Assembly: GCA_964552395.1 (NCBI GenBank)
Contig: CAZKGM010000008.1
Coordinates: 24,063 to 88,062, forward strand
Source of the DNA: an uncultured Thermoanaerobaculia bacterium
Lineage (GTDB): Bacteria; Acidobacteriota; Thermoanaerobaculia; Thermoanaerobaculales; Sulfomarinibacteraceae
Length of the DNA stretch: 64,000 nt
Reading direction: 5' to 3'
Below, piece after piece: positions 6,627 to 61,808 of this stretch. Made by a program: the position numbers and the translations under genes. The notes under the pieces were generated by a model, which saw only the letters and a list, made by a program, of their open reading frames with translations, was not told the origin of the DNA and did not search any database. How positions within the stretch are numbered: the first letter of the stretch is position 1; each line of letters begins with the position of its first letter.

Positions 6627-6631
6627 GAGTC

Positions 6632-7711: not shown

Positions 7712-7715
7712 GGAA

Positions 7716-8276: not shown

Positions 8277-8285
8277 GGGGCGAAG

Positions 8286-26398: not shown

Positions 26399-26642
26399 CT
26401 CGACATTCTAGCCCGGATCACCCGGTCGGGGCTGCTGAGTAGGGCTCCCGGCTGGTCCCGGCATGATTGATCTACAGAAACTCAAGATGGGCGGGGGTTT
26501 CCCCCGATTCGATGAGCCGTTGGGACGTGCCGATCTGGCGTCGCTGGTCGGATCGGCACCGCGAAGCCCTGATGGCAGCGGAGAAGGCTTGGGCGCGATC
26601 CTTGCAAAAGGATGGACCGGCCTACTGGCCGAGGGGAGAGTC

Positions 26643-27626: not shown

Positions 27627-27738
27627 GGTTCCCAGGCGTCGGCGGCTCGAGCTGTGTGAAGGCAATTCGGTGCGCTGTTACAGCGTGCCTGGGCAGCGGT
27701 GAGTGTGCTGCTGTAGGGTCCGCTGCGGGAGGGCGCCA

Positions 27739-32294: not shown

Positions 32295-33961
32295 TGCGAC
32301 GCCCGGTTTCGACCGTGATGGTCGCGCTCCTGGCGCTCTTGGTGGCGGTCGTGGCCGGCGCGGACGAACCCTCGCTCGAGGTCCATCTGAACCCCCAGCG
32401 GCTCGGCCTCCAAGACGTGACGCGGCTTACGATAACTGTCTCCGGAGGGAAGATCGAGGGGGCGCCGCCGCGCCCCGCCCAGCTGTCGAACCTCGAGATT
32501 GTCGGCGGCCCCAGCACCGAGCAGCAGTTCTCCTGGGTCAACGGCGTCGCGTCGTCGAGCACGCGGTTCGTCTACGTCCTCCAGCCCCTGGGGCTGGGGT
32601 CGGCCCGGGTCGGGCCGGTGACGGTGCGGATCGGCGGCAAAGAGCTGGCCTCGGCAGCGATCGAAGCCGAGGTGGTCGAGGGCAGTCTGGCCCCGCCGCA
32701 ACGTCAGCGCCGGCTGCCGTGGAGCCCCTTGGATGATGTCCTCGGGCCCCGCTCCCGGCGCCAGGTGCAGGCGGAGGTGCGCCTGCTGGCGCCCAAGACG
32801 AAGCTGTACCTTGGTGAGTCCATCCCGATCACGGTGGTTCTCGAGACGACCGCCAGCGTCGAGGGCTTCCAGTGGGTCGACCCGCCGTCGTTTCCCGGCT
32901 GGTGGGTGCAGCGCGTGGACCTTCCCCAACAGGTGAGCGGTTCCTTGGTCGAGCGCGGCGGCAGGCGCCTGATGCAGTACCCCGTGGCACGCTACGTGAT
33001 CATTCCACTCAAGGCGGGGATGCTGAAGGTGCCGGCGACCCGCGCGCGCATCGGGATTGGAGCGCCGAGCCTGTTCGGCCCCGGGCAGGTTCTGGAGCGG
33101 ACGTCATCACAGCGTGACTTCGAGGTCATGCAGCGGCCGGTGCCGCCCGGCGGGTTCAGCGGTGCCGTGGGGAAGCTGTCGTACAGCGGCAAGGTGTCGC
33201 CGCAGAAGGTCCGTGTCGGCGACCCGCTGACAGTGACCATCAGCCTCGCGGGGAACGGCAATCTGCCGTTGGTCGGAGCCCCTGCGAGGTGGCCTTCGTG
33301 TAGCACGTGTGAGGCCTATCCGCCGGAAGAGAACAGCTCGGTGAAGGTGGATGGGGACGGCATCCATGGCACACGTACGTGGTCGACGACGATGGTGCCG
33401 CGGCAGTGGGGCGACCTCCGACTGCCCGCGGTCTCGCTGGCCGTCTTCGACCCCGTGAGCGTGACCTACCGGCGCCAGTCCGTCGGCCCCTTCACGGTCA
33501 TGGTGTCGCCGCCGGCGGTCACGCCGACGCCGACGCCGCCAGCCGTGCCGCTTCCGCGACGGGCCGCGGCCGGCGCCGTGCGCACCATTGAGCACGACCG
33601 GCCCGCGCCCCGCTCGGATCGGGAGGGGTCGGCACCTTGGAGGTGGGTCCTGGGCGCTCTCGCCGTGGGCCTTTTTCTCGGCGCCGCGACGGCCCTGCTC
33701 CTACGCCGCCGGCGCCGGGTGCGAATCCCGAAGGCTGCCGCCGGTGAGTCAGCCGCCGAAAGGGCCAGGGAGCTGCAGGGTGTGCTCGAGCGCTGGTGGA
33801 GCGGTCTGCGGGAGAACGAGAAGACCCGGCCGCACGAGGAGAATGTCAGCTCCCTCAGGCGGGAGCTCGAGGGGATCCGCTTCGCGCCGGGACGCGCGGA
33901 CCACACGGAGACCGTGCGGCAGCTCGAGGAGAGGCTCCGCAAGCTGCTGAGAGACGCGTGA
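32294..33961 (+). CDS. batD: BatD-like oxygen-tolerance family protein
   Basis: GTG overlaps the previous TAG (TAGTG). The protein has a signal peptide, repeated Ig-like segments, a late transmembrane helix (WRWVLGALAVGLFLGAATALLL) followed by RRRRR, and a cytoplasmic tail. This is the BatD architecture. Confidence 0.7.
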   Translation: MRRPVSTVMVALLALLVAVVAGADEPSLEVHLNPQRLGLQDVTRLTITVSGGKIEGAPPRPAQLSNLEIVGGPSTEQQFSWVNGVASSSTRFVYVLQPLGLGSARVGPVTVRIGGKELASAAIEAEVVEGSLAPPQRQRRLPWSPLDDVLGPRSRRQVQAEVRLLAPKTKLYLGESIPITVVLETTASVEGFQWVDPPSFPGWWVQRVDLPQQVSGSLVERGGRRLMQYPVARYVIIPLKAGMLKVPATRARIGIGAPSLFGPGQVLERTSSQRDFEVMQRPVPPGGFSGAVGKLSYSGKVSPQKVRVGDPLTVTISLAGNGNLPLVGAPARWPSCSTCEAYPPEENSSVKVDGDGIHGTRTWSTTMVPRQWGDLRLPAVSLAVFDPVSVTYRRQSVGPFTVMVSPPAVTPTPTPPAVPLPRRAAAGAVRTIEHDRPAPRSDREGSAPWRWVLGALAVGLFLGAATALLLRRRRRVRIPKAAAGESAAERARELQGVLERWWSGLRENEKTRPHEENVSSLRRELEGIRFAPGRADHTETVRQLEERLRKLLRDA

Positions 33962-33973
33962 TAAACTGCCTGC

Positions 33974-35101
33974 GTGTCTGACTTTCAGGTCTTCAGTCTG
34001 GCGCTGGAGGAGATCGAGCCGTTTCTCGACAGGCGACGGTATGCGGCGTTCGTGCCGGTGCGTCTGCGGGCGGATGTCTTCCTGCGCGAGATCCTGAGTA
34101 AGGCGAACGACTTCTTGCCTTCGGGTGGCGGCTCCATTCTCATGGACAAGCCGTTCGAGAGGGGACGAAGCCCGGGCGAGACGCGGCTGCATTTCGTGGC
34201 GACGTTCGGGGCGCTAGCGGACCAGCTGGTGGGGATGTCACTGTCCGCCGACGAAGGTGTGGCGGGTCATGTGTATCGCACCGGTGAGCCGTACCTGATG
34301 GCAACGCCCGAGAGCGACCCGAACTTCTATGCCAAGTTCGACGAAACACACGGCTTTCACACCGAGAGTATGGTTGCAGTCCCGATCCGGATCGAGCGGA
34401 CAGTGTGCGGCGTGCTCGAGCTCATCAACCGCTCCGACGGTCGTCCGTTTACCGAGAGGGACCGGCAGCTGCTCGAGATCTTCGCCCGCTACACGTCAGT
34501 GTTTATCGAGAACCTCCTGGATGCACAGCGGGCCAACGAGATGGCGCGGCGCGATGATCTTACCGGCCTCTACAACGACCGTTTCTTCCATCATCGGCTG
34601 ACGGAGGACCTGGTCCGCGCCGACGTCATTGGGTCGTCGGTAGCGCTACTGTTCCTGGATCTGGACAACTTCAAGGATGTCAATGACACGCACGGACATC
34701 TCGCGGGCTCCCAGGTGCTCAAAGAGTTCGGGTTCTTGCTAAGCAAGACGGTGACAAGGGGAGGCGCAACCCTCGCTCGGTACGGCGGTGACGAGTTCGT
34801 GGTGATCCTGGCCGACGACGGGGAAGACGAAGCGCTCGAAACGGCGCGGCGGATTCAGTCCGCGATGCGTGACGCGACCTTCCTTCAGGGCACCTACACA
34901 TGGGCAGAGAGGCCTGTCGTGTGGCGGCGCGATCTGACATGCTCGCTGGGTGTGGCCGTGTACCCCGACCACGTCTCACGCGAGGGCACCACGGACCTGA
35001 AGAAGAACCTGCTCCTACGGGCGGCGGACCAGGCCATGTACCGAGCCAAGGACGAGGGCAAAGATCGCATTCGGGTGGCTGAGGCGATCACGGTAGCGTA
35101 G
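33974..35101 (+). CDS. GAF-domain diguanylate cyclase (GGDEF)
   Basis: A GAF-like N-terminal half (…GVAGHVYRTGEPYLM…VAVPIRIERTVCGVLELINR) is followed by the GGDEF active site RYGGDEFVVIL with upstream DLDNFKDVNDTHGH. It starts 12 nt after batD. Confidence 0.85.
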   Translation: MSDFQVFSLALEEIEPFLDRRRYAAFVPVRLRADVFLREILSKANDFLPSGGGSILMDKPFERGRSPGETRLHFVATFGALADQLVGMSLSADEGVAGHVYRTGEPYLMATPESDPNFYAKFDETHGFHTESMVAVPIRIERTVCGVLELINRSDGRPFTERDRQLLEIFARYTSVFIENLLDAQRANEMARRDDLTGLYNDRFFHHRLTEDLVRADVIGSSVALLFLDLDNFKDVNDTHGHLAGSQVLKEFGFLLSKTVTRGGATLARYGGDEFVVILADDGEDEALETARRIQSAMRDATFLQGTYTWAERPVVWRRDLTCSLGVAVYPDHVSREGTTDLKKNLLLRAADQAMYRAKDEGKDRIRVAEAITVA

Positions 35102-51921: not shown

Positions 51922-52469
51922 CGAGGTACATGAGGGGGCGCCGACTGGTTGGCCTACTGGCCGTCGTGCTGACGGCCGCCACTGTCGCGTTCGCCCAAGC
52001 GCCGCCGCAGCAGACCCCAACGGCTGCCGGGCAGCCGGAGGGCGCCGGCGGAGCCCTGCCCAAGGGCGACGTCGATGTCAGCCGCATCGACCAGATCCTG
52101 CGCGGTGAGGAGCGGATGTTCGAGGGCGAGAAGTTCACCTATGACCCCGCCAACCGGAGAGACCCGTTCGTTTCCCTTGCCGAGGGCGTTCCGGAAGAGG
52201 CGAAGGGACCCGAGGAGCGTCCTAAGGGGCTGGCCGGGATGATGATCGGCGAGGTTCGGCTCGAGGGGGTCGTCAAGACCACGAGCGGAATCATCGCCAT
52301 CGTGCAAGGACGTGACAAGCTGAGCTACATCCTCCGCCCCGGGACGAAGCTGTATGACGGAGAGGTCAAGACAATCCTCCCAGACAGGGTCGTCTTCAAG
52401 CAGCAGGTGAATGATCCCAAGGCGATGAAGCCGTTCCGAGAGGTCGTGCGCGAGGTGTCTGGGAAGTGA
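51918..52469 (+). CDS. pilP: Type IV pilus assembly protein PilP-like (signal peptide, no lipobox Cys)
   Basis: ATGA overlaps the pilO stop. The C-terminal beta-sandwich pattern is VRLEGVVKTTSGIIAIVQGRDKLSYILRPGTKLYDGEVKTILPDRVVF. Confidence 0.75.
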   Translation: MTRYMRGRRLVGLLAVVLTAATVAFAQAPPQQTPTAAGQPEGAGGALPKGDVDVSRIDQILRGEERMFEGEKFTYDPANRRDPFVSLAEGVPEEAKGPEERPKGLAGMMIGEVRLEGVVKTTSGIIAIVQGRDKLSYILRPGTKLYDGEVKTILPDRVVFKQQVNDPKAMKPFREVVREVSGK

Positions 52470-52480
52470 AGGAAGCAAGC

Positions 52481-55024
52481 ATGAAATTGGGGGATGACAT
52501 GAAGGTCAAGAACGCCCGCATCCTCATGGTGGTGTTGGCAGCGGTCGCGGTCGCTGCGATCGGCGTGACTCCCGTGCTGGCGGCCGCCGAGACGCCGCTC
52601 GCTGTGAGCGGACTGCGCGCCGAGGCCGGCGCCCAAGGGCCGGTCGTTCATCTCCAGGTGGCCGGCAACCCCGACACGGTGCACTACAGTCCCCAGCCGG
52701 GGGTGTGGGTGGTTGAGATGCCCGCGGCCACGTGGGACGCCGAGATCGGGTCGGTCACCGCGCCCGAGGCGGGTATCCAGCGTGCTGAGCTGTCGACGGT
52801 CGACGAGTTCGGCCGCCGTGCAACCCGTCTGACCGTGTGGTTGACTGAACCGGCCCAGCTGGACCTGACACCGACTGGTGACGGCCTCGACCTGGTCTTC
52901 TCGCACGCGGAGAAGGCGGCGGCCCCGGCCCCCCCAGTGGCTGCAGATGCTGAAGCCGGTCAGAGGGCGGCCGTTGAGTCGGCCCCCGAGAAGGGGGCTC
53001 CGGAGGTCGAGAAGGCCGCTGTCCCGCCGGAGGACGTCGCTGCCGAGAACGTTCCTGCGAAGAAGCAGGTTGCCGCCGCGTCGCCGCCGGTCTCTCCAGC
53101 CGGCAGCTTGCTGGGAGTCACGCCAACGGCGAGCGCCGACGGGCTCGTGGTTCGTCTGCGCGGTGACGGCACACTGACCGGTCGCGCCTTCACACTCAAG
53201 AACCCCGACCGGGTCGTCGTCGACCTCCCCGGTGTCGTCAACCGTGTCAAGCGCACCCTGTACAGGGTCGACGGGGCGGCGGCCAACCGGGTCCGGGTGG
53301 CGCAGTTCCGGGCGGTACCCGAGCCGATCACGCGGCTGGTGGTTGACCTCGACGGCCCTCAGCCCTACTCGTTCTCGAGCACAGCGGAGGGCGGCGAGCT
53401 GCTGGTAGGCAGTACGGACGCTGAATCCGTGCACGCCTCGGCGGCGAAGGGCATCATCGAGTTCTCACGCTCCCATCCCGAGGCTGAGAAGACGGCCCAG
53501 GCAACGGTTGAACCCGACCGGCCGGTGGCGCCGGAGGCTGCCGAGGAGCCGCAAGCGGCTGCCGTACAGGCCGTCGAGCAAGATCGTACGGTGTCGCAAC
53601 CAGAGACCGCCGTGATGTCCGATAGCGCACCGGTCCACACGCTGCCGCCGGTCGTGACCGCCTCCGATTCGGCCGCCAAGCCGAGGAACCGCAGCCCGTG
53701 GGTCGCCGATCCATCACAGCTGATCGAGCAGGGCTCGGCCAAGGAGATCGTCGGCCTTCCGGCGGGGAAGAAGGACTATCAGACCAAGGAGGTCGAGAGC
53801 GAGGAGCGGCAGTTCACCGGAGAGCCGATCACGCTCACCCTCAAGGATGCCGACATCAAGGACGTGCTGCGCACCTTCGCGCAGCTGACCAACCTCAATA
53901 TCGTGGTGGATCCCTCGGTATCGGGGTCGGTGACGGTTGAGCTGCACGACGTGCCGTGGGACCAGGCCCTGGACCTGATCCTGCGTATCAACGGTCTCGA
54001 CTATGTGCTCGAGAACAACGTGTTGCGGGTGGCGCCGATAGCGAAGCTGGCGTCGGAGAAGACCGCCGCGGCCAAGTTCATGGAGGACCAGGAGAACGCG
54101 AAGCCGCTGAAGACGGTGCTCAAGCCGCTGTCCTACGCCCAGGCCGACGAGATCGCGGGTCTCCTCGGGAAGGAGTCCTACCTGCTCTCCAAGCGGGGGT
54201 CGGTGACCGTCGACAAGCGCACCAACCAGCTCATCATTCGTGACACGATCGACAGGGTCGAGGGGATCATCCGTCTGATCGAGAGCCTGGACACGCCGAC
54301 CCAGCAGGTCGTGATCGAGGGCCGGATCGTCGAGACCACGCGCGACTTTTCCCATGAGCTGGGCGTCAACTGGGGCTTCAGCGGCGTCATGGACGCTGCG
54401 CACGGCAACGACACCGGTCTCAACTTCCCGAACAGCATCAGCACCAACGGGCGGGTCGCCCTCGAGCGCGGCAGCAACGGTGTCGTCTCGGTGACCTTCG
54501 GCGACATTCTCAACACCTTCAACCTCGACTTCCTGCTGTCGGCCGCCGAGTCGGACGGCATGGTGAGGATCGTGTCATCGCCTCGGGTGACGACCCAGAA
54601 CAACCAGAAGGCAACGGTCCGTTCGGGTCTGCAGATCCCGGTCCAGACGGTGGCCAACAACACCGTCACCGTCCAGTACCAGGACGCGACCCTGAGGCTC
54701 GAGGTGACACCACAGATCACCGCCGAGGGGACGGTGATGCTGGACCTGAATATCAAGAAGCAGGAGCCGGTGCAGGGTGTCAACGTGCAGGGCGGCCAGA
54801 ATAGCCCGATCTTCACCCGAGACGCGCAGACCAAGTTGCTGGTCAGGGATGGTGGGACGACCGTCATCGCGGGCATCTACCAGCTGAACGACCAGACGAA
54901 CATCAACCGTGTGCCCGGTCTCGCGAAGATCCCGATTCTGGGATTCCTATTCCGCAACAAGTACGTCTTCAACCGGCACGACGAGCTCCTGATCTTCATT
55001 ACACCCAGGATCGTGAAGTACTAG
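52481..55024 (+). CDS. pilQ: Type IV pilus secretin PilQ with two AMIN domains
   Basis: Two AMIN-like modules (…VHLQVAGNPD…VWVVEMP; …LVVRLRGDG…RVVVDLPGV…ITRLVVDL) precede N0/N1 domains. The secretin core ends in VPGLAKIPILGFLFRN…ELLIFITPRIV. In-frame start options are at 52466 (GTG), 52481 and 52499. Confidence 0.9.
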   Translation: MKLGDDMKVKNARILMVVLAAVAVAAIGVTPVLAAAETPLAVSGLRAEAGAQGPVVHLQVAGNPDTVHYSPQPGVWVVEMPAATWDAEIGSVTAPEAGIQRAELSTVDEFGRRATRLTVWLTEPAQLDLTPTGDGLDLVFSHAEKAAAPAPPVAADAEAGQRAAVESAPEKGAPEVEKAAVPPEDVAAENVPAKKQVAAASPPVSPAGSLLGVTPTASADGLVVRLRGDGTLTGRAFTLKNPDRVVVDLPGVVNRVKRTLYRVDGAAANRVRVAQFRAVPEPITRLVVDLDGPQPYSFSSTAEGGELLVGSTDAESVHASAAKGIIEFSRSHPEAEKTAQATVEPDRPVAPEAAEEPQAAAVQAVEQDRTVSQPETAVMSDSAPVHTLPPVVTASDSAAKPRNRSPWVADPSQLIEQGSAKEIVGLPAGKKDYQTKEVESEERQFTGEPITLTLKDADIKDVLRTFAQLTNLNIVVDPSVSGSVTVELHDVPWDQALDLILRINGLDYVLENNVLRVAPIAKLASEKTAAAKFMEDQENAKPLKTVLKPLSYAQADEIAGLLGKESYLLSKRGSVTVDKRTNQLIIRDTIDRVEGIIRLIESLDTPTQQVVIEGRIVETTRDFSHELGVNWGFSGVMDAAHGNDTGLNFPNSISTNGRVALERGSNGVVSVTFGDILNTFNLDFLLSAAESDGMVRIVSSPRVTTQNNQKATVRSGLQIPVQTVANNTVTVQYQDATLRLEVTPQITAEGTVMLDLNIKKQEPVQGVNVQGGQNSPIFTRDAQTKLLVRDGGTTVIAGIYQLNDQTNINRVPGLAKIPILGFLFRNKYVFNRHDELLIFITPRIVKY

Positions 55025-55033
55025 GAGGGATCC

Positions 55034-55579
55034 ATGAAACGCGCAATGCAGCTGTGTGCTCTGACGGTCCTGGCGGCGGTGGCCCTTTCCTGCGGCGGCA
55101 ACAGCACGCTGAACGAGACCGAGGCGGTTGTCTTCCTGACGGCTCAGGTCAAGGAGTACAACCCGGATGTGAGCATCGCGTCGACCTCCGACGTCACGAT
55201 CAGCAAGCTCACGATCGACTCGCATCCCAAGGACCCGTCCGCGACCTTGACCTCGACCCAGGACGTGCACCTGACACGCTGGCAGGTGACGCCGTACCGG
55301 ACCGACGGTGGCACGACGGCGTCGCCGATGTGGCAGCATGATCTCAACGTCTACGTGGCCGCCGGCGGCTCTGCCGATCTCGAGAACTACCGCGTGTTCC
55401 CGGCCGAGTACTTCCGCCAGGCGCCGCTGTCCTACCTCCTTCCGGAGAACGGCGGCTTCGACCCGGAGACCGGGAATACCAACATACGTCAGAGTCTCAA
55501 GGTCGAGATCTTCGGCACGACGGTGAGTGGGAAAAGCATTTCCGTGGTCTTCGAAGTTGCTTTCAACTTCTTCTACTGA
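55034..55579 (+). CDS. Small lipoprotein of unknown function immediately downstream of pilQ
   Basis: The lipobox is in MKRAMQLCALTVLAAVALS|CGG. The 181-aa beta-rich protein ends in AFNFFY. It starts 9 nt after the pilQ stop. Confidence 0.6.
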   Translation: MKRAMQLCALTVLAAVALSCGGNSTLNETEAVVFLTAQVKEYNPDVSIASTSDVTISKLTIDSHPKDPSATLTSTQDVHLTRWQVTPYRTDGGTTASPMWQHDLNVYVAAGGSADLENYRVFPAEYFRQAPLSYLLPENGGFDPETGNTNIRQSLKVEIFGTTVSGKSISVVFEVAFNFFY

Positions 55580-55591
55580 TGGGGGACGACC

Positions 55592-57934
55592 GTGATGAAG
55601 AAACTACTCACAACCGCTGTGATCGCGACGCTGACGGTCCTGGTTGGGTGCTCGGGCAGCAGCCCGACGCCGAAGGCGTTGCCGACTCCCTCGACCGACG
55701 CGTGGGTGATCTCGTCACTGACCGCGAGCTCGAGCCAGGCCATCGTCGGTGAAACGGTTTCGCTGCAGGCGGCGGTCACCAAGAACGGGAGCCCGGCCCC
55801 TGACGGTACCACGGTCACCTTCGATTGGAGCACCGGAGGCGCCTATACGGCCCTCGCCTCCGTGGCGACTTCCGGGGGAACCGCCACCACGGGCATGGTG
55901 GCAGCCTCTGCCGGGACCTACTACATCCGCGCCCGTGTCTCGGGAATCTCGAAGTCGACCACCGTCACCTTCAGGCAGCCCGACACCACCACCGACCTCC
56001 AGATCTACAACGTGGTGCCGGCGCAGGGTACGCTCGACGGCGGCGATCAGGTAACGTTCCAGGGCAAGGGCATCTTCACGCCCGTCGACCTCTACTTCTC
56101 GGTCGACGGCATCGACTACCAGGCCCAGATCGTGTCCGTGGCCGAGGACTACTCCGCGGTGACCGTGATCACCCCGAAGATCACCGGCGTCACCGACACC
56201 AGCCGGCAGTGGGTCGCCAGCGTCCGCATCGTGCGCGGTTCCGGGACGGCGTACCAGCAGCAGCTGACGGTGCCCACCGCCTACACCTTCCTGCCGACCT
56301 CCGGCGCTCCCGAGATCTACCAGCTGTTCCCCGATCACGGCAGCCCCCGCGGCGGCGAGCAGGTGACGATCTTCGGCCGCAACTTCAAGGCGCCGGTCAC
56401 TGTCACGTTCGACACCGGCTTCGGCTCGCTGAGTGCGGACGAGGTGTCGGTGTCCGAGGACGGGCGCCAGATCACGGTCATCACGCCGCAGGTCAGCGCC
56501 GACCCGATCCAGGCCGACGAGCAGGCGACGGTGACGGTGATCAACGAGGCTGGAACGCCGCGCGCGACGACGATCAGCAAGTCGAACGCGTTCACCTTCG
56601 TCGCCGACCAGCTGACGCCGCGAATCTCGACCGTGTCGCCGAACTCCGGGCCGATGGCCGGCGGTACCCGGGTGAGTATCTTCGGCGAGGAGACCTCGGG
56701 CAGCGGCTTCCAGTTCCCGGTCCAGGTCTTCTTCGAGGGCGGCGACATCGGCAGCCGCGAGGCGGATGTCGTCTCCGTCGACGTGCACAAGATCGTTTGC
56801 GTCAGCCCGGACGTCACCAACGCCGCGGTGACGCCGCCGGCGACCGTCGACATCCGAGTCGTCAACGTCACCTCGGGGCTTTCGGAAACCAAGCCGGGAG
56901 CATTCACCTACGGCGAGAACCTGTTCGTATCCGGCAACACGCCGAACCAGGGCCCGGCCACCGGCGGCACCCAGGTGACGATCCTCGGCTCCGGGTTCGC
57001 CCCGCCGCTGTTCGTGGACTGGCTGGGGGCCAGCCCGCCGCAGCGGCTGGACGTCCTGTCGGTGACCGGCGCCGAGATCCTGGTGAACATGCCGGGGCTG
57101 AGTCCGCCACCGTGCGGCGACACCACGGCTTCCTTCCGGGTCACCGAGACCGACAGCAACCAGATCTCCGAGGGCGGCAACTTCACCTACCTCGGCGAGT
57201 CGCCGACCGTGCTGTCGGTCGATCCGAACCTCGTGACCCCCACAGCCAATGATCCCAGCCAACCGATTCTCGAACCAGCGGATCACACCCTGGTGATCAC
57301 CGGTCAGGACTTCCACGCTCCGGTCCGGGTCAGCATCGGCGGCTTCGTTCTTCCGGACGCCGACGTGACCCTGGACTCGGACACCCAGATCACGGTCACC
57401 TACATCCCGACCCCCGACGAGATCAACCTGAGCTACAACACCTCATCCTGCGTCGACACGAACGGCAACCCCGGTGCACGGGACATTCCGACCAACGTGC
57501 CGGTGACCGTCACCAACATCAACGGCAACTGCAGCAATACGTTGGCTTCCGGCCTCGCCTACGAGCCGTGGGACCGTGGCAATCCCCCCGATCCCCACCT
57601 GGGCCAGTGCCACGCGGCGCCGATTCTTGTGGTGGATCCGACCTCCCTGCTCTTTCCGGATTGGGCCGCTGGCGGCGCCTGCCCGACCGGAGATACTCAG
57701 ACCTTCACGATCTCCAATACCGGTAGCGCCGACCTCAACTGGAGCATAGGCATCTCCGGTACCGACGCCAGCGATTTCACGCCGGACATAACCTCAGGAA
57801 CTCTCGGCGCGAATATTTCAGTGACGGTCACCATCGACTTCTGCCCGGCGACGACCGGCGCCAAGAGCGCCCAGGTCGACGTGAACTCGAACGGCGGGAA
57901 TGCGACCGTGACCCTGACCGGGAACGGCACCTAG
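55592..57934 (+). CDS. Large lipoprotein with Big-like domain, at least four IPT/TIG-type Ig repeats and a C-terminal ASH/choice-of-anchor-D-like domain
   Basis: The lipobox is LTVLVG|CSG. Repeated signatures are PAQGTLDGGDQVTFQGKGF, PDHGSPRGGEQVTIFGRNF, PNSGPMAGGTRVSIFG and PNQGPATGGTQVTILGSGF. The C-terminus is TQTFTISNTGSADLNWSI...AKSAQVDVNSNGGNATVTLTGNG. Confidence 0.7.
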   Translation: MMKKLLTTAVIATLTVLVGCSGSSPTPKALPTPSTDAWVISSLTASSSQAIVGETVSLQAAVTKNGSPAPDGTTVTFDWSTGGAYTALASVATSGGTATTGMVAASAGTYYIRARVSGISKSTTVTFRQPDTTTDLQIYNVVPAQGTLDGGDQVTFQGKGIFTPVDLYFSVDGIDYQAQIVSVAEDYSAVTVITPKITGVTDTSRQWVASVRIVRGSGTAYQQQLTVPTAYTFLPTSGAPEIYQLFPDHGSPRGGEQVTIFGRNFKAPVTVTFDTGFGSLSADEVSVSEDGRQITVITPQVSADPIQADEQATVTVINEAGTPRATTISKSNAFTFVADQLTPRISTVSPNSGPMAGGTRVSIFGEETSGSGFQFPVQVFFEGGDIGSREADVVSVDVHKIVCVSPDVTNAAVTPPATVDIRVVNVTSGLSETKPGAFTYGENLFVSGNTPNQGPATGGTQVTILGSGFAPPLFVDWLGASPPQRLDVLSVTGAEILVNMPGLSPPPCGDTTASFRVTETDSNQISEGGNFTYLGESPTVLSVDPNLVTPTANDPSQPILEPADHTLVITGQDFHAPVRVSIGGFVLPDADVTLDSDTQITVTYIPTPDEINLSYNTSSCVDTNGNPGARDIPTNVPVTVTNINGNCSNTLASGLAYEPWDRGNPPDPHLGQCHAAPILVVDPTSLLFPDWAAGGACPTGDTQTFTISNTGSADLNWSIGISGTDASDFTPDITSGTLGANISVTVTIDFCPATTGAKSAQVDVNSNGGNATVTLTGNGT

Positions 57935-57949
57935 GGTGTGACAGAATGA

Positions 57950-57979
57950 CGGGCGGGCGGCCGCGGGGTCGCCCGCCCG
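57950..57979 (+). terminator. GC-rich hairpin without U-tract between the TIG lipoprotein and TPR genes (possible attenuator/terminator)
   Basis: CGGGCGGGCG (57950-57959) pairs perfectly with CGCCCGCCCG (57970-57979) around a 10-nt loop. No T-run follows. Confidence 0.3.
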
Positions 57980-57989
57980 GGTCAACCAG

Positions 57990-59015
57990 ATGGACTACCG
58001 AATCGAGCAACTGCGGTTCCAGCTGCGGGAGGATCCTACCTCCCGCCAGTTCTATCAGCTCGGCGAGCTGCTGCGCCGGGAGGGTGAGCTCGAGGCGGCG
58101 GTCGCGGTCCTCCGCGCAGGGCTCGAGCACCACCCGCGCTACCTCGCGGCGTGGGTCGCCCTCGGCCGCACCCTGTACGAGCTCCATGCCTACGACGAGG
58201 CGGAGGCGGCCTTCGCCCGCGCCCTCGCGCTCGACCCCCAGAACGCGGTCGCGGCGCAGATGGTGGGCCGTTCGGCGGCCCGCCGCGGCGAGTGGGAGCG
58301 GGCGGTCAAGGGGCTGACACTGGCGCTCGCATTGGGGCCGCGAGACGACGACCTCGAGGCCGAGCTGGAGGCTGCACGGGCGCACCTGACACCGCCGCCT
58401 GAGGCGGTTGCGGCGCCCCCCGCTCCGGACCGGGGGATGATGGCGCCTGCCGTCCCGCCGCGGCCGGCCCCGGTCATCAGGTCGACCGAGATCACCGAGG
58501 TGTTCGCCGACGAGCCGTTCTCAATGGCGCCGAGGGGAGACACCGGCGTTTTCCTCGCTGCGGCGGATGTCTTCACGGCGGCCGAGGAGGAGGCGCCGGC
58601 CGACTGGGAGGAAGCGGCTGCAGTGGCGCAGGAGCCCCCTCCGTTGGCGCCGGCGGCGCAGCTGCAGCCGGACCTCGGCGTCGAGGCGCCCGAGGCTGAA
58701 GCCGACGACGGCTGGGCGGCACAGGCAGAGGACGAGGGCACGGCAGCAGGGCGGGAGGAAATCCCCCTGCCGACGGTGACCCTGGCCCGCCTGGCGGTCG
58801 AGCAGGGAGACCTCGATCTCGCCGAACGAACGCTCGACGGTGTGCTGGCGCACGATCCCGATTCCGCCGAGGCGAGAGAGCTGTACCAGGACATCCAGGG
58901 CCTCAGGGATGGCGCGGCGGTGCAGCCGCGCCCCTCTTCCGGCGCAGCCAGAGCGGCGGCGTTGCAGGCATGGCTGCGGACGTTTAGACTGGCTGCTGGA
59001 AGGGAGGAGGCGTGA
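57990..59015 (+). CDS. Cytoplasmic TPR-repeat protein with central Ala/Pro/Glu-rich linker
   Basis: There is no signal peptide. N-terminal TPRs (QLGELLRREGELEAAVAVLRAGLEHHPRY…AEAAFARALALDPQN) are followed by a low-complexity acidic linker. The C-terminal TPR is LARLAVEQGDLDLAERTLDGVLAHDPDS. Confidence 0.65.
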   Translation: MDYRIEQLRFQLREDPTSRQFYQLGELLRREGELEAAVAVLRAGLEHHPRYLAAWVALGRTLYELHAYDEAEAAFARALALDPQNAVAAQMVGRSAARRGEWERAVKGLTLALALGPRDDDLEAELEAARAHLTPPPEAVAAPPAPDRGMMAPAVPPRPAPVIRSTEITEVFADEPFSMAPRGDTGVFLAAADVFTAAEEEAPADWEEAAAVAQEPPPLAPAAQLQPDLGVEAPEAEADDGWAAQAEDEGTAAGREEIPLPTVTLARLAVEQGDLDLAERTLDGVLAHDPDSAEARELYQDIQGLRDGAAVQPRPSSGAARAAALQAWLRTFRLAAGREEA

Positions 59016-59365
59016 GCTTCCAGGCGGCCATCACCGAGCTTTGCGAGAGCTGTCCGGGGTCCGTTGGGGCGGCAATCGTCGATCCCGACGGTATTCCGGT
59101 GGCGGTGACCGAAAGCGAGGTGGTGCTGGAGGACATCGGCGCCGAGTTCGCGGCCATCGTCCAGGGCGTCGAGGAAGCCGAGCGGGAGCTCCGTCACGGC
59201 TCGCTCCGACAGCTGATCGTGTACACCAACGAGCTGGCCCTGATTCTGACACTGATGGGGGGCGGCTACTTCCTGCTCCTGCTGCTCCACTCCGATGGCC
59301 TGCTGGGCAAGGGGCGCTTCCTGTCGCGTCTGGTGGGCGAGCGGCTGTACGACGAGTTCATTTGA
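59012..59365 (+). CDS. Roadblock/LC7 (MglB-like) domain protein
   Basis: The 117-aa protein MSFQAAITELCESCPGSVGAAIVDPDGIPVAVTES…EDIGAEFAAIV…LRQLIVYTNELALILTLM fits the Roadblock/LC7 pattern. The GTG start overlaps the TPR gene stop (GTGA), suggesting translational coupling. Confidence 0.6.
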   Translation: MSFQAAITELCESCPGSVGAAIVDPDGIPVAVTESEVVLEDIGAEFAAIVQGVEEAERELRHGSLRQLIVYTNELALILTLMGGGYFLLLLLHSDGLLGKGRFLSRLVGERLYDEFI

Positions 59366-59380
59366 GGTGACCACCTAATC

Positions 59381-59872
59381 ATGTTCAAGTTCGAGGAGAT
59401 CTGCGAGCTCATTCGTCTTGTCGGTTCGAGCGGCGTGGCAAGCGTCGAGGTGGAGCACGGCGGCAGCCGCCTCCGCATCGAGGGCGTTGCCCACGGCGCG
59501 CCGATTGAGGGAACACCCCGGGCCGTGCCGCTGGAGACCGTCCCGGTCGCCCGGATGGCGACGACAGCGCCGGCGGTGGCCGCCCCTCCCCAGGCGCCGG
59601 AGGCGATGCCGGCGGCCGGTGAGGAGGAGGGGGTCCACTTCGTGACCTCTCCGATCGTCGGCACCTTCTACCGAGCCCCGAACCCGGATGCGGACCCGTA
59701 CGTCAAGGTCGGGGACTTCGTCGAAAAGGGCCAGGTGCTGTGCATCGTCGAGGCCATGAAGCTGATGAATGAGATCGAGTCCGACACCTCGGGCACGGTC
59801 GTCAAGGTGTATGCCGAGAACGCGCAGCCCGTCGAGTTCGGGGAGCGGCTGTTCGCGCTTCGTCCGGCCTGA
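59381..59872 (+). CDS. accB: Acetyl-CoA carboxylase biotin carboxyl carrier protein
   Basis: The biotinylation motif is CIVEAMKLMNEIESD. An Ala/Pro-rich linker and C-terminal lipoyl-like fold are present. Confidence 0.95.
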   Translation: MFKFEEICELIRLVGSSGVASVEVEHGGSRLRIEGVAHGAPIEGTPRAVPLETVPVARMATTAPAVAAPPQAPEAMPAAGEEEGVHFVTSPIVGTFYRAPNPDADPYVKVGDFVEKGQVLCIVEAMKLMNEIESDTSGTVVKVYAENAQPVEFGERLFALRPA

Positions 59873-59875
59873 GCC

Positions 59876-61210
59876 ATGCTCGGCAAGGTCCTCATCGCCA
59901 ACCGGGGCGAGATCGCGGTTCGGGTGATCGCCGCGTGCAAGGAGCTCGGCATCGAGACCGTTGCCGTGCACTCGGACGCGGACCGCGACTGTCTGCACGT
60001 CCGCTTCGCGGACCAGTCGGTGTGCATCGGCGGGCCCTACTCCGCCAACAGCTACCTGAATATCTCAGCCGTCATTGCCGCGGCCGAGATTACCGGTGCG
60101 GACGCGGTTCATCCCGGCTACGGGTTCCTTGCCGAGAACGCCCACTTCGCCGAGATCGTGCAGGAGTGCGGGCTGACCTTCATCGGGCCCCCGCCGGAGG
60201 CGATCCGGCTCATGGGCAACAAGTCGGCCGCTCGCCGCGCGGTCTCGGAGGCCGGTGTGCCCGTCCTCCCGGGTTCCAAGGAGCCGCTCGAGAGCCGTCG
60301 CGAGGCGCTGACTTTGGCCGACGAGATCGGGTACCCGGTGATCCTGAAGGCTTCAGCCGGGGGCGGGGGACGTGGGATGCGGCTGGCGTTCGACGCCCGC
60401 GAGCTGCGGCTCGCCTTCGACACCGCGAGGAACGAGGCCGAGAAGGCTTTCGGTGACCCGTCGGTGTACCTCGAGAAGTACCTGCAGCGTCCGCGCCACA
60501 TCGAGTTCCAGATTCTCGCAGACTCGGCGGGTCGGATCCTCCACCTCGGAGAGCGTGAGTGCTCGATCCAGAGGCGCCACCAGAAGCTCCTCGAAGAGTC
60601 GCCCTCCGCGGTCCTGACGCCGGAGCTGAGGTCAGAGATGGGGGCGGCGGCCGTTGCCGCCGCCCGCGCGGCACGCTACGTTTCCGCCGGCACGGTCGAG
60701 TTTCTCCTCGCTCCCGACGGCGGCTACTACTTCATGGAGATGAACACGAGGATCCAGGTCGAGCACCCGGTAACCGAGATGGTGACCGGCACCGACCTCG
60801 TCAAGGAGCAGCTGCTCATCGCCGGCGGCGAGCGCATGTCGCTCTCCCCTCGCAGGTCGCTGCGGCTCGACGGTCACGCGATTGAGTTTCGCATCAACGC
60901 GGAGGATCCCGAGACCTTCGCTCCGTCACCGGGCCGGGTGACGAAGCTCGTGCTCCCGGGCGGGCCCGGGGTGCGGGTGGACACTCACCTGTACGCCGGC
61001 TACCTGGTGCCGCCGTATTACGACAGCCTCATCGCCAAGATCATCGTCCATGGTCGCGACCGGGACGAGGCGATCGCGCGCGGTCGTCGTGCGTTGGCGA
61101 TGTTCGAGATCGAGGGCGTCAAGACCTCCGCCCGGCTCCACCAGCGTATCCTCGAGGACCGCGACTTCATCAACGGCGACCTCGACACCAGCTTCATGGA
61201 CCGCTACTAG
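59876..61210 (+). CDS. accC: Acetyl-CoA carboxylase biotin carboxylase subunit
   Basis: The start [33 protein letters not shown], the ATP-grasp block GGGGRGMR and [14 protein letters not shown] are present. It is collinear over 444 aa. Confidence 0.95.
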
Positions 61211-61235
61211 CGATGCGGGCGTGCCCGCATCGCTA
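61208..61235 (+). terminator. Perfect 13-bp-arm hairpin at the accC stop (terminator-like, no U-tract)
   Basis: TAGCGATGCGGGC (61208-61220) pairs with GCCCGCATCGCTA (61223-61235). The stop codon is inside the 5' arm. It is followed by GAAGTGATT. Confidence 0.5.
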
Positions 61236-61280
61236 GAAGTGATTCCGGGGCGCGAAGCGGTCCGGAATCACGGTGGTACC

Positions 61281-61808
61281 ATGTTGAGGATGCTTCGCAT
61301 CTACCTCGTGGGCTTCATGGGCTGTGGGAAGACGAAAGCGGGAGAGGCACTTGCCGCCACGCTGGGGGTCCCGTTCGTCGACCTGGATCGGCTGATCAGT
61401 CAGAGCTTCGGGTCGACGGTGTCGCAAGTCTTCTCACGGCACGGGGAGCCCGCGTTTCGCGCCGAGGAGGCTCGTCTTCTGAAGACGACGCTACAACGGC
61501 GGCGTGTCATCGTCTCGACCGGTGGCGGCACCTTCTGTCACCGTTCAAACCGCGCCGCCATCCACGAGTCGGGGGGGATCTCGGTGTTCCTCGACGTGCC
61601 GTGGGAGGTCATTGTCAGCCGCCTTCCAGGGAAAAACCTCGATCGACCGAAGTTCGAGAGCGAGGCTGCCGCGCGCCGGCTGTTCAGCGAACGTGTTGCC
61701 GACTACCGGGCGGCCCGGATTCACCTCCAGCTCGGCGGTGACGAACCGCCCGATGAGGTGGCACGAAGGGTCGTAGCGGCGCTGCCGGGGATTCCGTGCG
61801 GTACCTGA
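61281..61808 (+). CDS. aroK: Shikimate kinase
   Basis: Walker A is IYLVGFMGCGKTKAG, followed by FVDLD and VSTGGG. The size is ~175 aa from ATG 61281, or 61290. The listed ORF start at 61050 overlaps accC and was rejected. Confidence 0.85.
   Translation: MLRMLRIYLVGFMGCGKTKAGEALAATLGVPFVDLDRLISQSFGSTVSQVFSRHGEPAFRAEEARLLKTTLQRRRVIVSTGGGTFCHRSNRAAIHESGGISVFLDVPWEVIVSRLPGKNLDRPKFESEAAARRLFSERVADYRAARIHLQLGGDEPPDEVARRVVAALPGIPCGT

What the first reader, a model, noticed from the sequence alone, without database searches (positions are those of the whole stretch)
55034..59365. Four uncharacterised genes grafted onto the 3' end of pilMNOPQ: small lipoprotein, IPT/TIG-repeat lipoprotein, TPR protein and Roadblock/LC7 protein
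pilQ is followed after 9 nt by a 181-aa lipoprotein. After a further 12 nt comes a 780-aa lipoprotein built from Ig-like IPT/TIG repeats, ending in an ASH/choice-of-anchor-D-like domain. After a GC hairpin (57950-57979) come a cytoplasmic TPR protein and a Roadblock/LC7 protein, whose GTG overlaps the TPR stop.

Roadblock/LC7 proteins of the MglB type act as regulators (GAPs or GEF components) of small Ras-like GTPases. In Myxococcus these set the polarity of type IV pilus motility. TPR lipoproteins such as Tgl act as secretin pilotins.

Here the Roadblock gene has no GTPase partner within the window, and the TPR protein lacks a signal peptide. The known models therefore do not map directly. 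The arrangement suggests two things:
- an outer-membrane or surface accessory pair for the secretin;
- a cytoplasmic TPR-Roadblock regulatory pair co-expressed with the pilus alignment complex.

Neither is part of the canonical machinery as I know it.
Basis: partly seen in the sequence, partly recalled or inferred. Interest (0 to 1): 0.55.

Follow-up and report, generated by a model that had tools for sequence, protein, structure and literature searches.

The report
Pilus secretin lipoproteins plus MglC-like polarity pair
The four genes after the pilus secretin gene pilQ are real and conserved, but they form two units: a pair of envelope lipoproteins that travels with pilQ, and a TPR protein paired with a likely ortholog of MglC, a known Myxococcus cell-polarity protein encoded at the same position there.

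Summary
All four ORFs, their spacing, domain assignments and the GC hairpin are confirmed. The window comes from a Thermoanaerobaculia (Acidobacteriota) genome. In all 53 related genome loci long enough to show it, the order is relA-pilMNOPQ-Lipo-TIG-TPR-Roadblock-accB-accC-aroK.

Three results change the interpretation.
1. The Roadblock protein is not MglB-like. Its best solved relative is Myxococcus xanthus MglC (E 2.4e-10, full length), and it keeps MglC's D-G signature and the K/R/R patch that binds RomR. In a Myxococcus and a Stigmatella genome, mglC lies in the same place: pilMNOPQ, small lipoprotein, mglC, efp, accB, accC. MglC is by definition an orphan, so the missing GTPase neighbour is expected.
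2. The 181-aa lipoprotein family follows pilQ even in much more distant lineages, including one that lacks TPR and Roadblock. It shows weak but above-null similarity to the Myxococcus post-pilQ lipoprotein.
3. The hairpin between TIG and TPR is conserved in 37 of 40 loci and looks like a terminator in about half. It splits the four genes into an envelope module and a cytoplasmic module.

The TPR partner and both lipoproteins remain functionally uncharacterised. Verdict: a new variant of a known kind, of moderate interest.

The parts
52466..55024 (+). pilQ, the type IV pilus secretin (AMIN, N0/STN, Secretin_N and Secretin domains). It anchors the envelope module.
   Evidence: Pfam Secretin 1.5e-44 and NCBIfam TIGR02515 386 bits. 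Public gene calls start at 52481 (847 aa).
55034..55579 (+). Small lipoprotein ('Lipo', 181 aa) encoded 9 nt after pilQ. It is a beta-sandwich and belongs to an uncharacterised family that follows pilQ in several divergent lineages.
   Evidence: No Pfam or NCBIfam hit. 340 close homologs, with Cys20 invariant. The exhaustive profile search found 195 representative clusters. AF2 gives pLDDT 90.4 and an all-beta model, with only generic Ig-like PDB matches. The gene lies directly after pilQ in 53 of 53 genome loci and in distant loci L059, L143, L144, L145 and L146.
55592..57934 (+). Ig-repeat lipoprotein ('TIG', 779-780 aa; the likely start is ATG 55595). It has an N-terminal lipobox, at least 4 IPT/TIG stretches, and a C-terminal choice-of-anchor-D / HYDIN-like Ig domain.
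   Evidence: Its length and sequence vary among relatives (about 660-1070 aa, 33-77% identity). In distant loci a Big_1, PKD or TIG lipoprotein takes this position.
57950..57979 (+). GC-rich hairpin between the TIG stop and the TPR start. It is a conserved terminator-like or attenuator element and marks the boundary between the two modules.
   Evidence: -36.7 kcal/mol, z -4.66. A hairpin of -20 kcal/mol or stronger lies a median of about 10 nt before the TPR ATG in 37 of 40 loci. The stem sequences differ. 21 of the 40 also have a T-rich tail. No Rfam match.
57990..59015 (+). Cytoplasmic TPR protein (341 aa). It has three N-terminal TPRs, an acidic Pro/Ala-rich disordered linker carrying a conserved short motif, a C-terminal TPR-like hairpin, and a terminal helix with an invariant Trp.
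   Evidence: generic TPR only. Ortholog alignment. No signal peptide. Its stop overlaps the Roadblock start by 4 nt here and in most relatives.
59012..59365 (+). Roadblock/LC7 protein (117 aa), an MglC-type orphan paralog of MglB.
   Evidence: Best PDB sequence hit is M. xanthus MglC 7ct3, E 2.4e-10, over residues 1-112. No MglB chain appears at E<=10. 27% identity, E 4e-15, to a Myxococcus MglC ortholog. Reciprocal profile scores are 43.7 and 67.3 bits, while MglB scores below shuffles. D26-G27-I28 and K100/R102/R106 are conserved. The AF2 model (pLDDT 89) has the Roadblock fold.
59381..61210 (+). accB and accC (biotin carboxyl carrier protein and biotin carboxylase). They are the conserved downstream neighbours and may be co-transcribed with TPR-Roadblock.
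   Evidence: Pfam hits (for accB; gene tables for both). The gap after the Roadblock gene is 15 nt. accB-accC also follow mglC, after efp, in Myxococcus and Stigmatella.

Best explanation
The four genes form two modules, separated by a conserved terminator-like hairpin.

Module 1 is the small lipoprotein plus the Ig-repeat lipoprotein. It is an envelope accessory pair tied to the secretin. Both genes are translated from the pilMNOPQ transcript with short, SD-containing gaps. Both proteins are lipid-anchored, probably in the outer membrane. I infer that they sit at or near the PilQ channel. The small, well-conserved beta-sandwich lipoprotein would be the PilQ-contacting part, acting as an assembly or stability factor in the manner of small secretin pilotins. 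The variable Ig-repeat protein would be a lineage-specific extension, either a periplasmic spacer or a surface adhesin.

Module 2 is the TPR protein plus the Roadblock protein, and it is cytoplasmic. The Roadblock protein is the ortholog of Myxococcus MglC. MglC is a dimeric scaffold that does not touch the GTPase MglA. It bridges RomR, through its basic K/R/R cleft, to the GAP MglB, and so helps set which pole carries active type IV pili. The TPR protein is translationally coupled to it and has a RomR-like layout: a folded N-domain, an acidic disordered linker, and C-terminal helices with an invariant Trp. I infer that it is a lineage-specific MglC partner or adaptor.

Shown: gene structure, homology of Roadblock to MglC, conserved position, conserved hairpin, and linkage of Lipo to pilQ.
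Inferred: physical contacts (Lipo-PilQ, TPR-MglC), outer-membrane location, and the effect of the hairpin on transcription.
For: Roadblock = MglC:
- Top solved relative is MglC 7ct3, E 2.4e-10, full length. MglB is absent at E<=10.
- Pairwise E 4e-15 to a Myxococcus MglC ortholog.
- Reciprocal HMM scores are 43.7 and 67.3 bits, against a maximum of about 8.6 bits for shuffles. MglB is not detected.
- The D26-G27 signature of the MglB_orphan1 clade (PMC4719450) and the K104/R106/R110 RomR-binding patch (PMC10329633; PMC12719032) are conserved as D26-G27 and K100/R102/R106.

Positional orthology: Myxococcus sp. and Stigmatella have pilMNOPQ, 214/201-aa lipoprotein, mglC, efp, accB, accC. MXAN_5772 is PilQ and MXAN_5770 is MglC.

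Linkage:
- The order is identical in 53 of 53 Thermoanaerobaculia loci.
- Lipo homologs at only 24-34% identity still follow pilQ directly and precede an Ig-like lipoprotein.
- In L145 the Lipo start overlaps the pilQ stop, and that locus has no TPR or Roadblock gene. The modules are therefore separable.
- The mature-part Lipo profile scores the two myxobacterial post-pilQ lipoproteins at 21.2 and 12.7 bits, against a maximum of 4.6 bits in 1000 shuffles. The alignments are colinear.

Coupling: the TPR stop and Roadblock start overlap by 4 nt in most loci.

Boundary: the hairpin is conserved in 37 of 40 loci with differing sequence.
Against: - The whole relA-to-aroK block is syntenic within the class. 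Linkage inside Thermoanaerobaculia alone is therefore weak evidence of function.
- Whether these genomes encode MglA, MglB and RomR could not be checked.
- MglC F25, part of the MglB-binding FDI surface, is Pro here.
- hhalign of the close Lipo family against the two myxobacterial lipoproteins was not significant (7% probability). The Lipo fold is a generic beta-sandwich with no pilotin match.
- In Myxococcus the known PilQ pilotin is the TPR lipoprotein Tgl (my knowledge), not the post-pilQ lipoprotein.
- The TPR protein shows only generic TPR similarity to SgmX.
- The TPR terminal helix is basic rather than Glu-rich like RomR-C, and it lacks the invariant Pro of RomR-C.
- The window's hairpin lacks a U-tract, and there is no room for a promoter between it and the TPR start.
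- One Lipo-domain protein (L060) is not next to pilQ.
Confidence: 0.55

Rival explanations
1. Inherited neighbourhood only. The four genes lie in an old, conserved string of housekeeping genes (relA, pilMNOPQ, accBC, aroK) and have no functional tie to the pilus machine.
For: The full block from relA to the metallophosphoesterase gene is colinear in every locus of the class. Parts of the order (pilMNOPQ, then accBC, then aroK) persist in the distant locus L145. accBC are unrelated to pili. A terminator-like hairpin separates TPR-Roadblock from the pil genes.
Against: Lipo stays immediately after pilQ, with 0-17 nt gaps or an overlap, in lineages where the downstream genes have changed. MglC is experimentally a regulator of T4P and gliding polarity in Myxococcus (PMC4719450, PMC10329633), and it keeps this position in two phyla.
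Confidence: 0.2
2. One reading: the Roadblock protein is an MglB-type GAP or GEF component whose GTPase is encoded elsewhere, and TPR-Roadblock directly regulates that GTPase.
For: The protein has the Roadblock fold. JGI annotates homologs as 'predicted regulator of Ras-like GTPase activity'. Fold search finds MglB structures at TM about 0.8.
Against: Sequence searches find MglC and not MglB. The protein is 117 aa long, without MglB's C-terminal extension (my knowledge; it is deleted as the CT/CTD part in the structural constructs). It carries the D-G signature of the orphan clade rather than MglB's shifted Asp. [quoted passage not shown] MglC binds MglB and RomR, not MglA (PMC10329633).
Confidence: 0.1
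3. Lipo and TIG are a cell-surface adhesin or surface-layer pair. They use the pilQ operon only for co-regulation with pili and do not contact the secretin.
For: IPT/TIG, Big_1, PKD, Invasin_D3 and choice-of-anchor-D domains are typical of surface proteins. The Ig-repeat gene varies strongly in length and sequence, as exposed proteins often do.
Against: The small lipoprotein is much better conserved than the Ig-repeat protein (50-88% against 33-77% identity). It is the element that always stays next to pilQ, even when the Ig-like partner changes type.
Confidence: 0.15

Closest known systems
MglC (MXAN_5770) of Myxococcus xanthus, the orphan Roadblock paralog of MglB in the front-rear polarity module
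   Same: Roadblock fold of about 117-120 aa, alignable over the full length (27% identity). The D-G-I motif and the basic K/R/R cleft are conserved. The gene is not next to mglA. It is encoded downstream of pilQ plus a small lipoprotein and upstream of accB-accC.
   Different: F25 of the FDI surface is Pro. Here the gene is preceded by, and overlaps, a TPR gene that is absent from the Myxococcus locus. The Myxococcus locus has efp between mglC and accB. The presence of MglA, MglB and RomR in this organism is unverified.
RomR (MXAN_4461), the MglC-binding polarity protein
   Same: The TPR protein has the same three-part layout: a folded N-terminal domain, a long Pro-rich and acidic disordered linker, and a C-terminal helical region with an invariant Trp (compared).
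   Different: The N-domain is TPR, not a receiver domain. The C-terminal helix is not Glu-rich and lacks the invariant Pro of RomR-C. No sequence homology was shown. This is an analogy only.
SgmX (MXAN_5766) and Bd2492, cytoplasmic TPR effectors of MglA that activate type IV pili
   Same: They are cytoplasmic TPR proteins with no signal peptide and with acidic disordered segments. They are encoded near mglC and accBC in Myxococcus. Bd2492 is of similar size at 353 aa (PMC3983030).
   Different: Only generic TPR similarity was found. The sgmX and bd2492 genes precede tamB and tamA, whereas the TPR gene here precedes mglC.
Secretin pilotins and accessory lipoproteins (Tgl, PilF and PilW for T4P; GspS, MxiM and YscW for T2SS and T3SS)
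   Same: Lipo is a small lipoprotein encoded next to, and translationally linked with, a secretin gene. It lacks Asp at position +2, which is the E. coli rule for outer-membrane sorting.
   Different: T4P pilotins are TPR lipoproteins, whereas Lipo is a beta-sandwich with no detectable similarity to any pilotin. No assembly role has been shown.
The uncharacterised post-pilQ lipoprotein of Myxococcaceae (positional equivalent of MXAN_5771)
   Same: Same genomic slot between pilQ and mglC, with a lipobox and a similar size (201-214 aa). It gives a weak but above-null colinear profile match, including the C-terminal 'FxGxTxSGxxV' hairpin.
   Different: The match is marginal (21.2 and 12.7 bits), and hhalign with the narrow family profile was not significant. 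No Ig-repeat lipoprotein follows it in Myxococcus.

Membership tests
MglC / MglB_orphan1 clade (McLoon et al. 2016) | Roadblock/LC7 fold, about 120 aa, without MglB's C-terminal extension | tested here: met
   PF03259 at 30.2 bits, above the gathering cutoff of 23. 117 aa. The AF2 model has pLDDT 89 and TM 0.8-0.87 to Roadblock structures.
MglC / MglB_orphan1 clade (McLoon et al. 2016) | Closer in sequence to MglC than to MglB | tested here: met
   A PDB phmmer search puts MglC 7ct3 first at E 2.4e-10, with no MglB chain at E<=10. Reciprocal HMMs score 43.7 and 67.3 bits, while MglB scores below shuffles. The MglB sequence was recalled from memory.
MglC / MglB_orphan1 clade (McLoon et al. 2016) | Conserved Asp directly before the invariant Gly (D26-G27) | tested here: met
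   D26 and G27 are invariant or nearly invariant in the joint alignment. The feature is defined.
MglC / MglB_orphan1 clade (McLoon et al. 2016) | FDI surface (F25, D26, I28) that binds MglB | tested here: inconclusive
   The window family has P25-D26-G27-I28. D and I are kept, and F is replaced by Pro in all Thermoanaerobaculia members.
MglC / MglB_orphan1 clade (McLoon et al. 2016) | Basic K104/R106/R110 cleft that binds the RomR C-terminal helix | tested here: met
   These residues align to K100, R102 and R106. Both Arg are invariant. The Lys is K in most members and Q or R in a few.
MglC / MglB_orphan1 clade (McLoon et al. 2016) | [quoted passage not shown] | tested here: met
   No MglA-like ORF at E<=10 in the 64-kb window or in 53 loci of up to 20 kb.
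MglC / MglB_orphan1 clade (McLoon et al. 2016) | The genome also encodes group-1 MglA (plus MglB and RomR) | not testable with these tools
The literature reports group-1 MglA and RomR in Acidobacteria generally, but not in this class specifically.
MglB (GAP of MglA) | Encoded within four genes of mglA, with detectable MglB sequence similarity | tested here: not met
T4P pilotin (Tgl/PilF/PilW) - tested for the TPR protein | TPR protein with a signal peptide and lipobox, located in the outer membrane | tested here: not met
   TPRs are present, but the longest ORF and all orthologs start with MDYRIEQLR and have no signal peptide. NCBIfam Tgl and PilW scores are far below their cutoffs (20 against 225, and 32 against 154).
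SgmX/Bd2492 family | Specific homology beyond generic TPR, and a gene upstream of tamB/tamA | tested here: not met
   BLASTP gives E of 0.01 or weaker. hhalign matches only generic TPR repeats, and the C-terminal match has 7.7% probability. No tamB gene is nearby.
RomR | [quoted passage not shown] | tested here: not met
   There is no receiver domain. The terminal helix has an invariant Trp but no Pro and is not Glu-rich (compared).
IPT/TIG-repeat protein with a choice-of-anchor-D domain | Pfam TIG and NF012200 above their curated cutoffs | tested here: met
   TIG scores 65.4 bits against 20.9. choice_anch_D scores 48.8 bits against 45.
Bacterial lipoprotein (both envelope proteins) | Signal peptide ending in a lipobox with an invariant Cys | tested here: met
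   VALSC|GG and LVGC|SG are read from the sequence. The Cys is invariant in 119 Lipo homologs. No dedicated predictor was available.
Intrinsic (Rho-independent) terminator | GC-rich stem-loop followed by a U-tract | tested here: inconclusive
   The stem is present and strong. The window copy has 1 T in the 9 nt after the stem. 21 of 40 loci have a stem of -20 kcal/mol or stronger plus at least 4 T. The consensus scan did not list it.

The most novel reading that the evidence does not exclude
Two claims together. First, the small post-pilQ lipoprotein family, including the unstudied Myxococcus gene between pilQ and mglC, is a previously unrecognised, widely conserved structural or assembly component of the type IVa pilus secretin complex. 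Second, in Thermoanaerobaculia a TPR protein replaces or supplements RomR as the MglC-binding polarity scaffold. This would give a receiver-less variant of the Myxococcus polarity module.
Probability: 0.25. Interest if true: 0.65.

Novelty: new variant of a known kind. Interest (0 to 1): 0.5.

Why it matters
MglC, RomR and MglB have been studied almost only in Myxococcus. A clear MglC ortholog at the same chromosomal position in an unrelated phylum shows that the tie between the polarity module and the pilus secretin locus is old.

The translationally coupled TPR protein is a concrete candidate for a new MglC partner.

The small lipoprotein that follows pilQ across divergent lineages has a possible counterpart in the model organism M. 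xanthus. That makes a cheap, direct experiment possible: delete the gene between pilQ and mglC and look at PilQ multimers and pili. The result could add a component to a machine regarded as well mapped.

The conserved hairpin also corrects the simple 'one long operon' reading of this locus.

Tried and rejected
1. Pfam, NCBIfam, PDB sequence search and Foldseek-PDB gave nothing specific for Lipo. It has no family, no solved relative, and only generic Ig-like or arrestin-like beta-sandwich matches at TM about 0.4.
3. hhalign of the narrow Lipo alignment against the two myxobacterial lipoproteins was not significant. Only the broadened profile gave a signal.
4. The TPR protein does not match SgmX beyond generic TPR. 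Its PDB hits are designed consensus TPRs. A Tgl-like pilotin role is rejected because there is no signal peptide.
5. The RomR-C sequence could be recovered only around W394, from mutagenesis primers. It shows no convincing similarity to the TPR C-terminal helix.
6. The metagenome scan with a joint MglC/Roadblock alignment returned only Thermoanaerobaculia orthologs. The MglC protein search listed only close Myxococcaceae and Archangiaceae relatives. MglC loci from other phyla were therefore not sampled.
7. The promoter and terminator consensus scan found nothing above shuffle expectation. Rfam found nothing.
8. Reading the A/T-rich tails after the hairpin as a promoter for a leaderless TPR mRNA was considered and dropped. 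The spacing to the ATG, about 3 nt after a TAnnnT-like hexamer, is too short.
9. The literature search for the gene between pilQ and mglC (MXAN_5771) found no paper. The accessible MglC papers do not mention its position next to pilQ.
Full report
OBSERVATION

- pilQ ends at 55024.
- After 9 nt containing GGAGG, a 181-aa ORF (Lipo) runs 55034-55579.
- After 12 nt (GTG 55592) or 15 nt (ATG 55595, the start used in public gene calls), a 779/780-aa ORF (TIG) runs to 57934.
- A 13-pair GC hairpin occupies 57950-57979.
- A 341-aa ORF (TPR) runs 57990-59015.
- A 117-aa ORF (Roadblock) starts at GTG 59012, overlapping the TPR stop by 4 nt, and ends at 59365.
- accB starts 15 nt later, and accC, aroK and a metallophosphoesterase gene follow.

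All ORFs have the GC3-rich codon pattern of real genes in this genome.

Profile searches confirm the domain calls:
- TIG (4 stretches, E 4.6e-18);
- a HYDIN/CFAP65-type Ig domain and choice-of-anchor D (48.8 bits against a cutoff of 45) at the C-terminus;
- TPRs at about residues 20-120 and 260-305;
- Robl_LC7 (30.2 bits against a cutoff of 23).

Lipo matches no Pfam or NCBIfam family. Both envelope proteins have lipoboxes (VALSC|GG and LVGC|SG). The TPR ORF cannot be extended to include a signal peptide. The hairpin folds at -36.7 kcal/mol with z = -4.66.

SOURCE AND LINKAGE

Lipo has 340 close homologs, all unnamed or 'hypothetical', from Acidobacteria MAGs. A genome-collection scan returned 53 loci, nearly all labelled Thermoanaerobaculia, Thermoanaerobaculales or Sulfomarinibacteraceae.

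In every locus long enough to show it, tblastn gives the same order: relA, pilM-N-O-P-Q, Lipo, TIG, TPR, Roadblock, accB, accC, aroK, metallophosphoesterase. Linkage is therefore conserved across the class. Because the entire block is colinear, however, this alone says little about function.

THE ROADBLOCK PROTEIN IS MglC, NOT MglB

A sequence search of the PDB puts Myxococcus xanthus MglC (7ct3) first, at E 2.4e-10 and aligned over residues 1-112. No MglB chain appears even at E<=10.

Further comparisons agree:
- BLASTP against a Myxococcus MglC ortholog gives 27% identity over the full length, E 4e-15.
- A profile of 117 myxobacterial MglC sequences scores the window protein at 43.7 bits.
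- A profile of 116 Thermoanaerobaculia sequences scores M. xanthus MglC at 67.3 bits.
- Shuffled controls reach at most about 8.6 bits, and M. xanthus MglB (sequence from memory) is not detected.

McLoon et al. defined MglC as the founding member of an 'orphan' clade of MglB paralogs. Members are not encoded next to mglA, and they carry a conserved Asp directly before the invariant Gly. The window family has D26-G27-I28.

Carreira et al. mapped the MglB-binding surface to F25/D26/I28 and the RomR-binding cleft to K104/R106/R110. The latter align to K100/R102/R106 and are conserved. F25 is replaced by Pro. The AlphaFold model (pLDDT 89) has the Roadblock fold. At fold level it cannot separate MglC from MglB.

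SAME POSITION IN MYXOCOCCUS

Looking up MglC orthologs gave a Myxococcus sp. chromosome and the Stigmatella aurantiaca chromosome. Both read: pilM-N-O-P-Q, a 214- or 201-aa protein with no Pfam hit, mglC, efp, accB, accC, sgmX-like TPR protein, AAA protein, tamB.

The literature confirms that MXAN_5772 is PilQ and MXAN_5770 is MglC. The protein between them is itself a small lipoprotein, with lipoboxes SVSC|VDD and APSC|VNG.

The backbone 'pilQ, small lipoprotein, mglC, accBC' is therefore shared by two phyla. No MglA-like ORF occurs in the window or the 53 loci. The MglC papers available here do not mention this neighbourhood.

THE LIPOPROTEINS

AlphaFold gives a confident all-beta sandwich for Lipo (pLDDT 90.4). 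Foldseek against the PDB finds only generic Ig-like, arrestin-like and transglutaminase-type sandwiches at TM about 0.4. A profile search of PDB sequences finds nothing.

An exhaustive profile search of 1.8 billion representatives finds 195 clusters, most of 180-210 aa. Context look-ups for distant members (24-34% identity to the window protein) are informative:
- In L059, L143, L144 and L146 the homolog again lies directly after pilQ and is followed by a lipoprotein built of TIG, PKD or Big-like Ig domains.
- L145 lies on a 4.36-Mb contig whose PilM is only 38% identical to the window's, which is more distant than Myxococcus PilM at 48%. Its order is relA, pilMNO(P)Q, Lipo homolog (its start overlaps the pilQ stop), Big_1 lipoprotein, M24 peptidase, accB, accC ... 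aroK. It has no TPR gene and no Roadblock gene.

Lipo plus an Ig-repeat lipoprotein therefore travel with pilQ independently of TPR-Roadblock.

One exception exists: L060 carries the Lipo domain as the C-terminal part of a 441-aa protein that is not next to pilQ.

A broadened Lipo profile, with signal peptides removed, scores the two myxobacterial post-pilQ lipoproteins at 21.2 and 12.7 bits. The maximum in 1000 composition-matched shuffles is 4.6 bits, and the alignments are colinear. hhalign with the narrow family was not significant. I regard remote homology as probable but not established.

THE TPR PROTEIN

Ortholog alignment shows four parts:
- a well-conserved N-terminal three-TPR domain (MDYRIEQLR...HPRYVAAWVSLGRAL...LDPENAVAA);
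- a linker of variable length, acidic and Pro/Ala-rich, carrying a conserved short motif ([ED]DPF..P.GDTGV[WF]....[DE]VF);
- a conserved C-terminal TPR-like hairpin (LPLPT.TLARLA..QGDL.LAE.TL);
- a terminal helix (AL..WL..VRLA.ER) with an invariant Trp.

Its stop codon overlaps the Roadblock start by 4 nt in the window and in most relatives, which suggests coupled translation and a stoichiometric complex.

The layout recalls RomR. RomR has a folded receiver domain, a disordered Pro-rich linker, and a C-terminal helix whose W394 inserts into MglC's basic cleft. There is no receiver domain here, however. The terminal helix is not Glu-rich and lacks the invariant Pro of RomR-C. No sequence similarity to the RomR segment recovered from published primers was seen.

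Similarity to SgmX is limited to generic TPRs. PDB hits are consensus TPR designs. A Tgl-type pilotin role is excluded by the lack of a signal peptide (one search scores are far below cutoffs).

The partner role for MglC is therefore an inference from gene coupling and architecture.

THE HAIRPIN

In 37 of 40 loci, a hairpin of -20 kcal/mol or stronger (11-20 pairs) lies between the TIG stop and the TPR start, a median of about 10 nt before the ATG. The stem sequences differ between loci, so it is the structure that is conserved. In 21 of the 40 loci the hairpin is also followed by a T-rich tail, as in an intrinsic terminator.

The window copy lacks the T-tract, and the simple consensus scan does not list it. 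Rfam has no match. There is no room for a promoter between the hairpin and the TPR start. The most economical reading is an internal, probably partial, terminator or RNA-stabilising element. It would lower or uncouple expression of TPR, Roadblock and possibly accBC relative to pilMNOPQ-Lipo-TIG. This needs transcript mapping.

MECHANISM PROPOSED

Module 1: Lipo and TIG are made from the pil transcript and lipid-anchored. By the E. coli sorting rule they would go to the outer membrane (the +2 residues are Gly and Ser); this is my inference, and the rule is untested in Acidobacteria. I propose that they act at the PilQ channel. The conserved small sandwich would be the secretin-contacting assembly or stability factor. 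The variable Ig-repeat protein would be a lineage-specific spacer or adhesin.

Module 2: the MglC ortholog dimer acts as in Myxococcus, as a scaffold linking an acidic partner bound at its basic cleft to MglB, and so feeding into the pole choice of the pilus machine. The TPR protein is its co-translated partner or adaptor.

CONFIDENCE

- Roadblock is an MglC-family ortholog: about 0.8.
- Two separable modules: about 0.7.
- Lipo is a pilQ-linked accessory: about 0.5.
- TPR binds MglC: about 0.4.
- Lipo is homologous to the Myxococcus lipoprotein: about 0.5.

WHAT COULD NOT BE DONE

[quoted passage not shown] The literature reports group-1 MglA and RomR in Acidobacteria in general.
- I could not run multimer predictions.
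- I could not compare the Lipo model with AlphaFold models, because those libraries were unavailable.

VERDICT

The remaining novelty is threefold: the uncharacterised pilQ-following lipoprotein family, the lineage-specific TPR partner of MglC, and the conserved internal hairpin.

Noticed in passing
window 6368-15651 (+): A second pilus-related cluster. It holds a PA14-domain protein (8286-10367) and a 1276-aa PilY1 beta-propeller protein (10383-14213, PF05567 at 2.8e-23). Small ORFs with no Pfam hit flank them (6368-7711, 7716-8276, 14217-15101, 15163-15651) and could be minor pilins.
   Followed up: partly
window 20995-23553 (-) and 24530-26398 (-): Two adjacent Ser/Thr protein kinase genes with C-terminal TPR regions.
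   Followed up: no
window 26463-33961 (+): A MoxR AAA, DUF58, VWA/TPR and BatD operon (Bat/aerotolerance-like), followed by a GAF-GGDEF diguanylate cyclase gene at 33974-35101.
   Followed up: no
L145 (4.36-Mb contig), 5546-15128: A distant lineage keeps relA, pilMNO(P)Q, a Lipo homolog, a Big_1 lipoprotein, an M24 peptidase and accBC, but has no TPR or Roadblock gene. Its PilQ is only 484 aa and lacks AMIN domains. pilO appears split into 145-aa and 56-aa ORFs. The +2 residue of the Big_1 lipoprotein is Asp.
   Followed up: partly
L060 892-2217: The Lipo domain occurs as the C-terminal third of a 441-aa protein that is not next to pilQ. Its neighbours are a ferritin/rubrerythrin-like gene and a 250-aa TPR gene.
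   Followed up: partly
window 58400-58560 (TPR residues about 170-195) and orthologs: A conserved short linear motif, [ED]DPF..P.GDTGV[WF]....[DE]VF, lies inside the otherwise variable acidic linker of the TPR protein. It is a candidate docking site with no known counterpart.
   Followed up: no
L061 and L062 (Myxococcus sp., Stigmatella), about 9300-13200: In myxobacteria mglC lies between a post-pilQ lipoprotein and efp-accB-accC, and sgmX follows accC directly. The MglC papers read here do not mention this neighbourhood. Stigmatella also has a terminator-like hairpin after the lipoprotein gene.
   Followed up: partly
window 59365-61808: The Roadblock gene is only 15 nt from accB, and accC and aroK follow. 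The pilQ ... aroK association known from Pseudomonas and E. coli (my knowledge) appears here in an expanded form.
   Followed up: no
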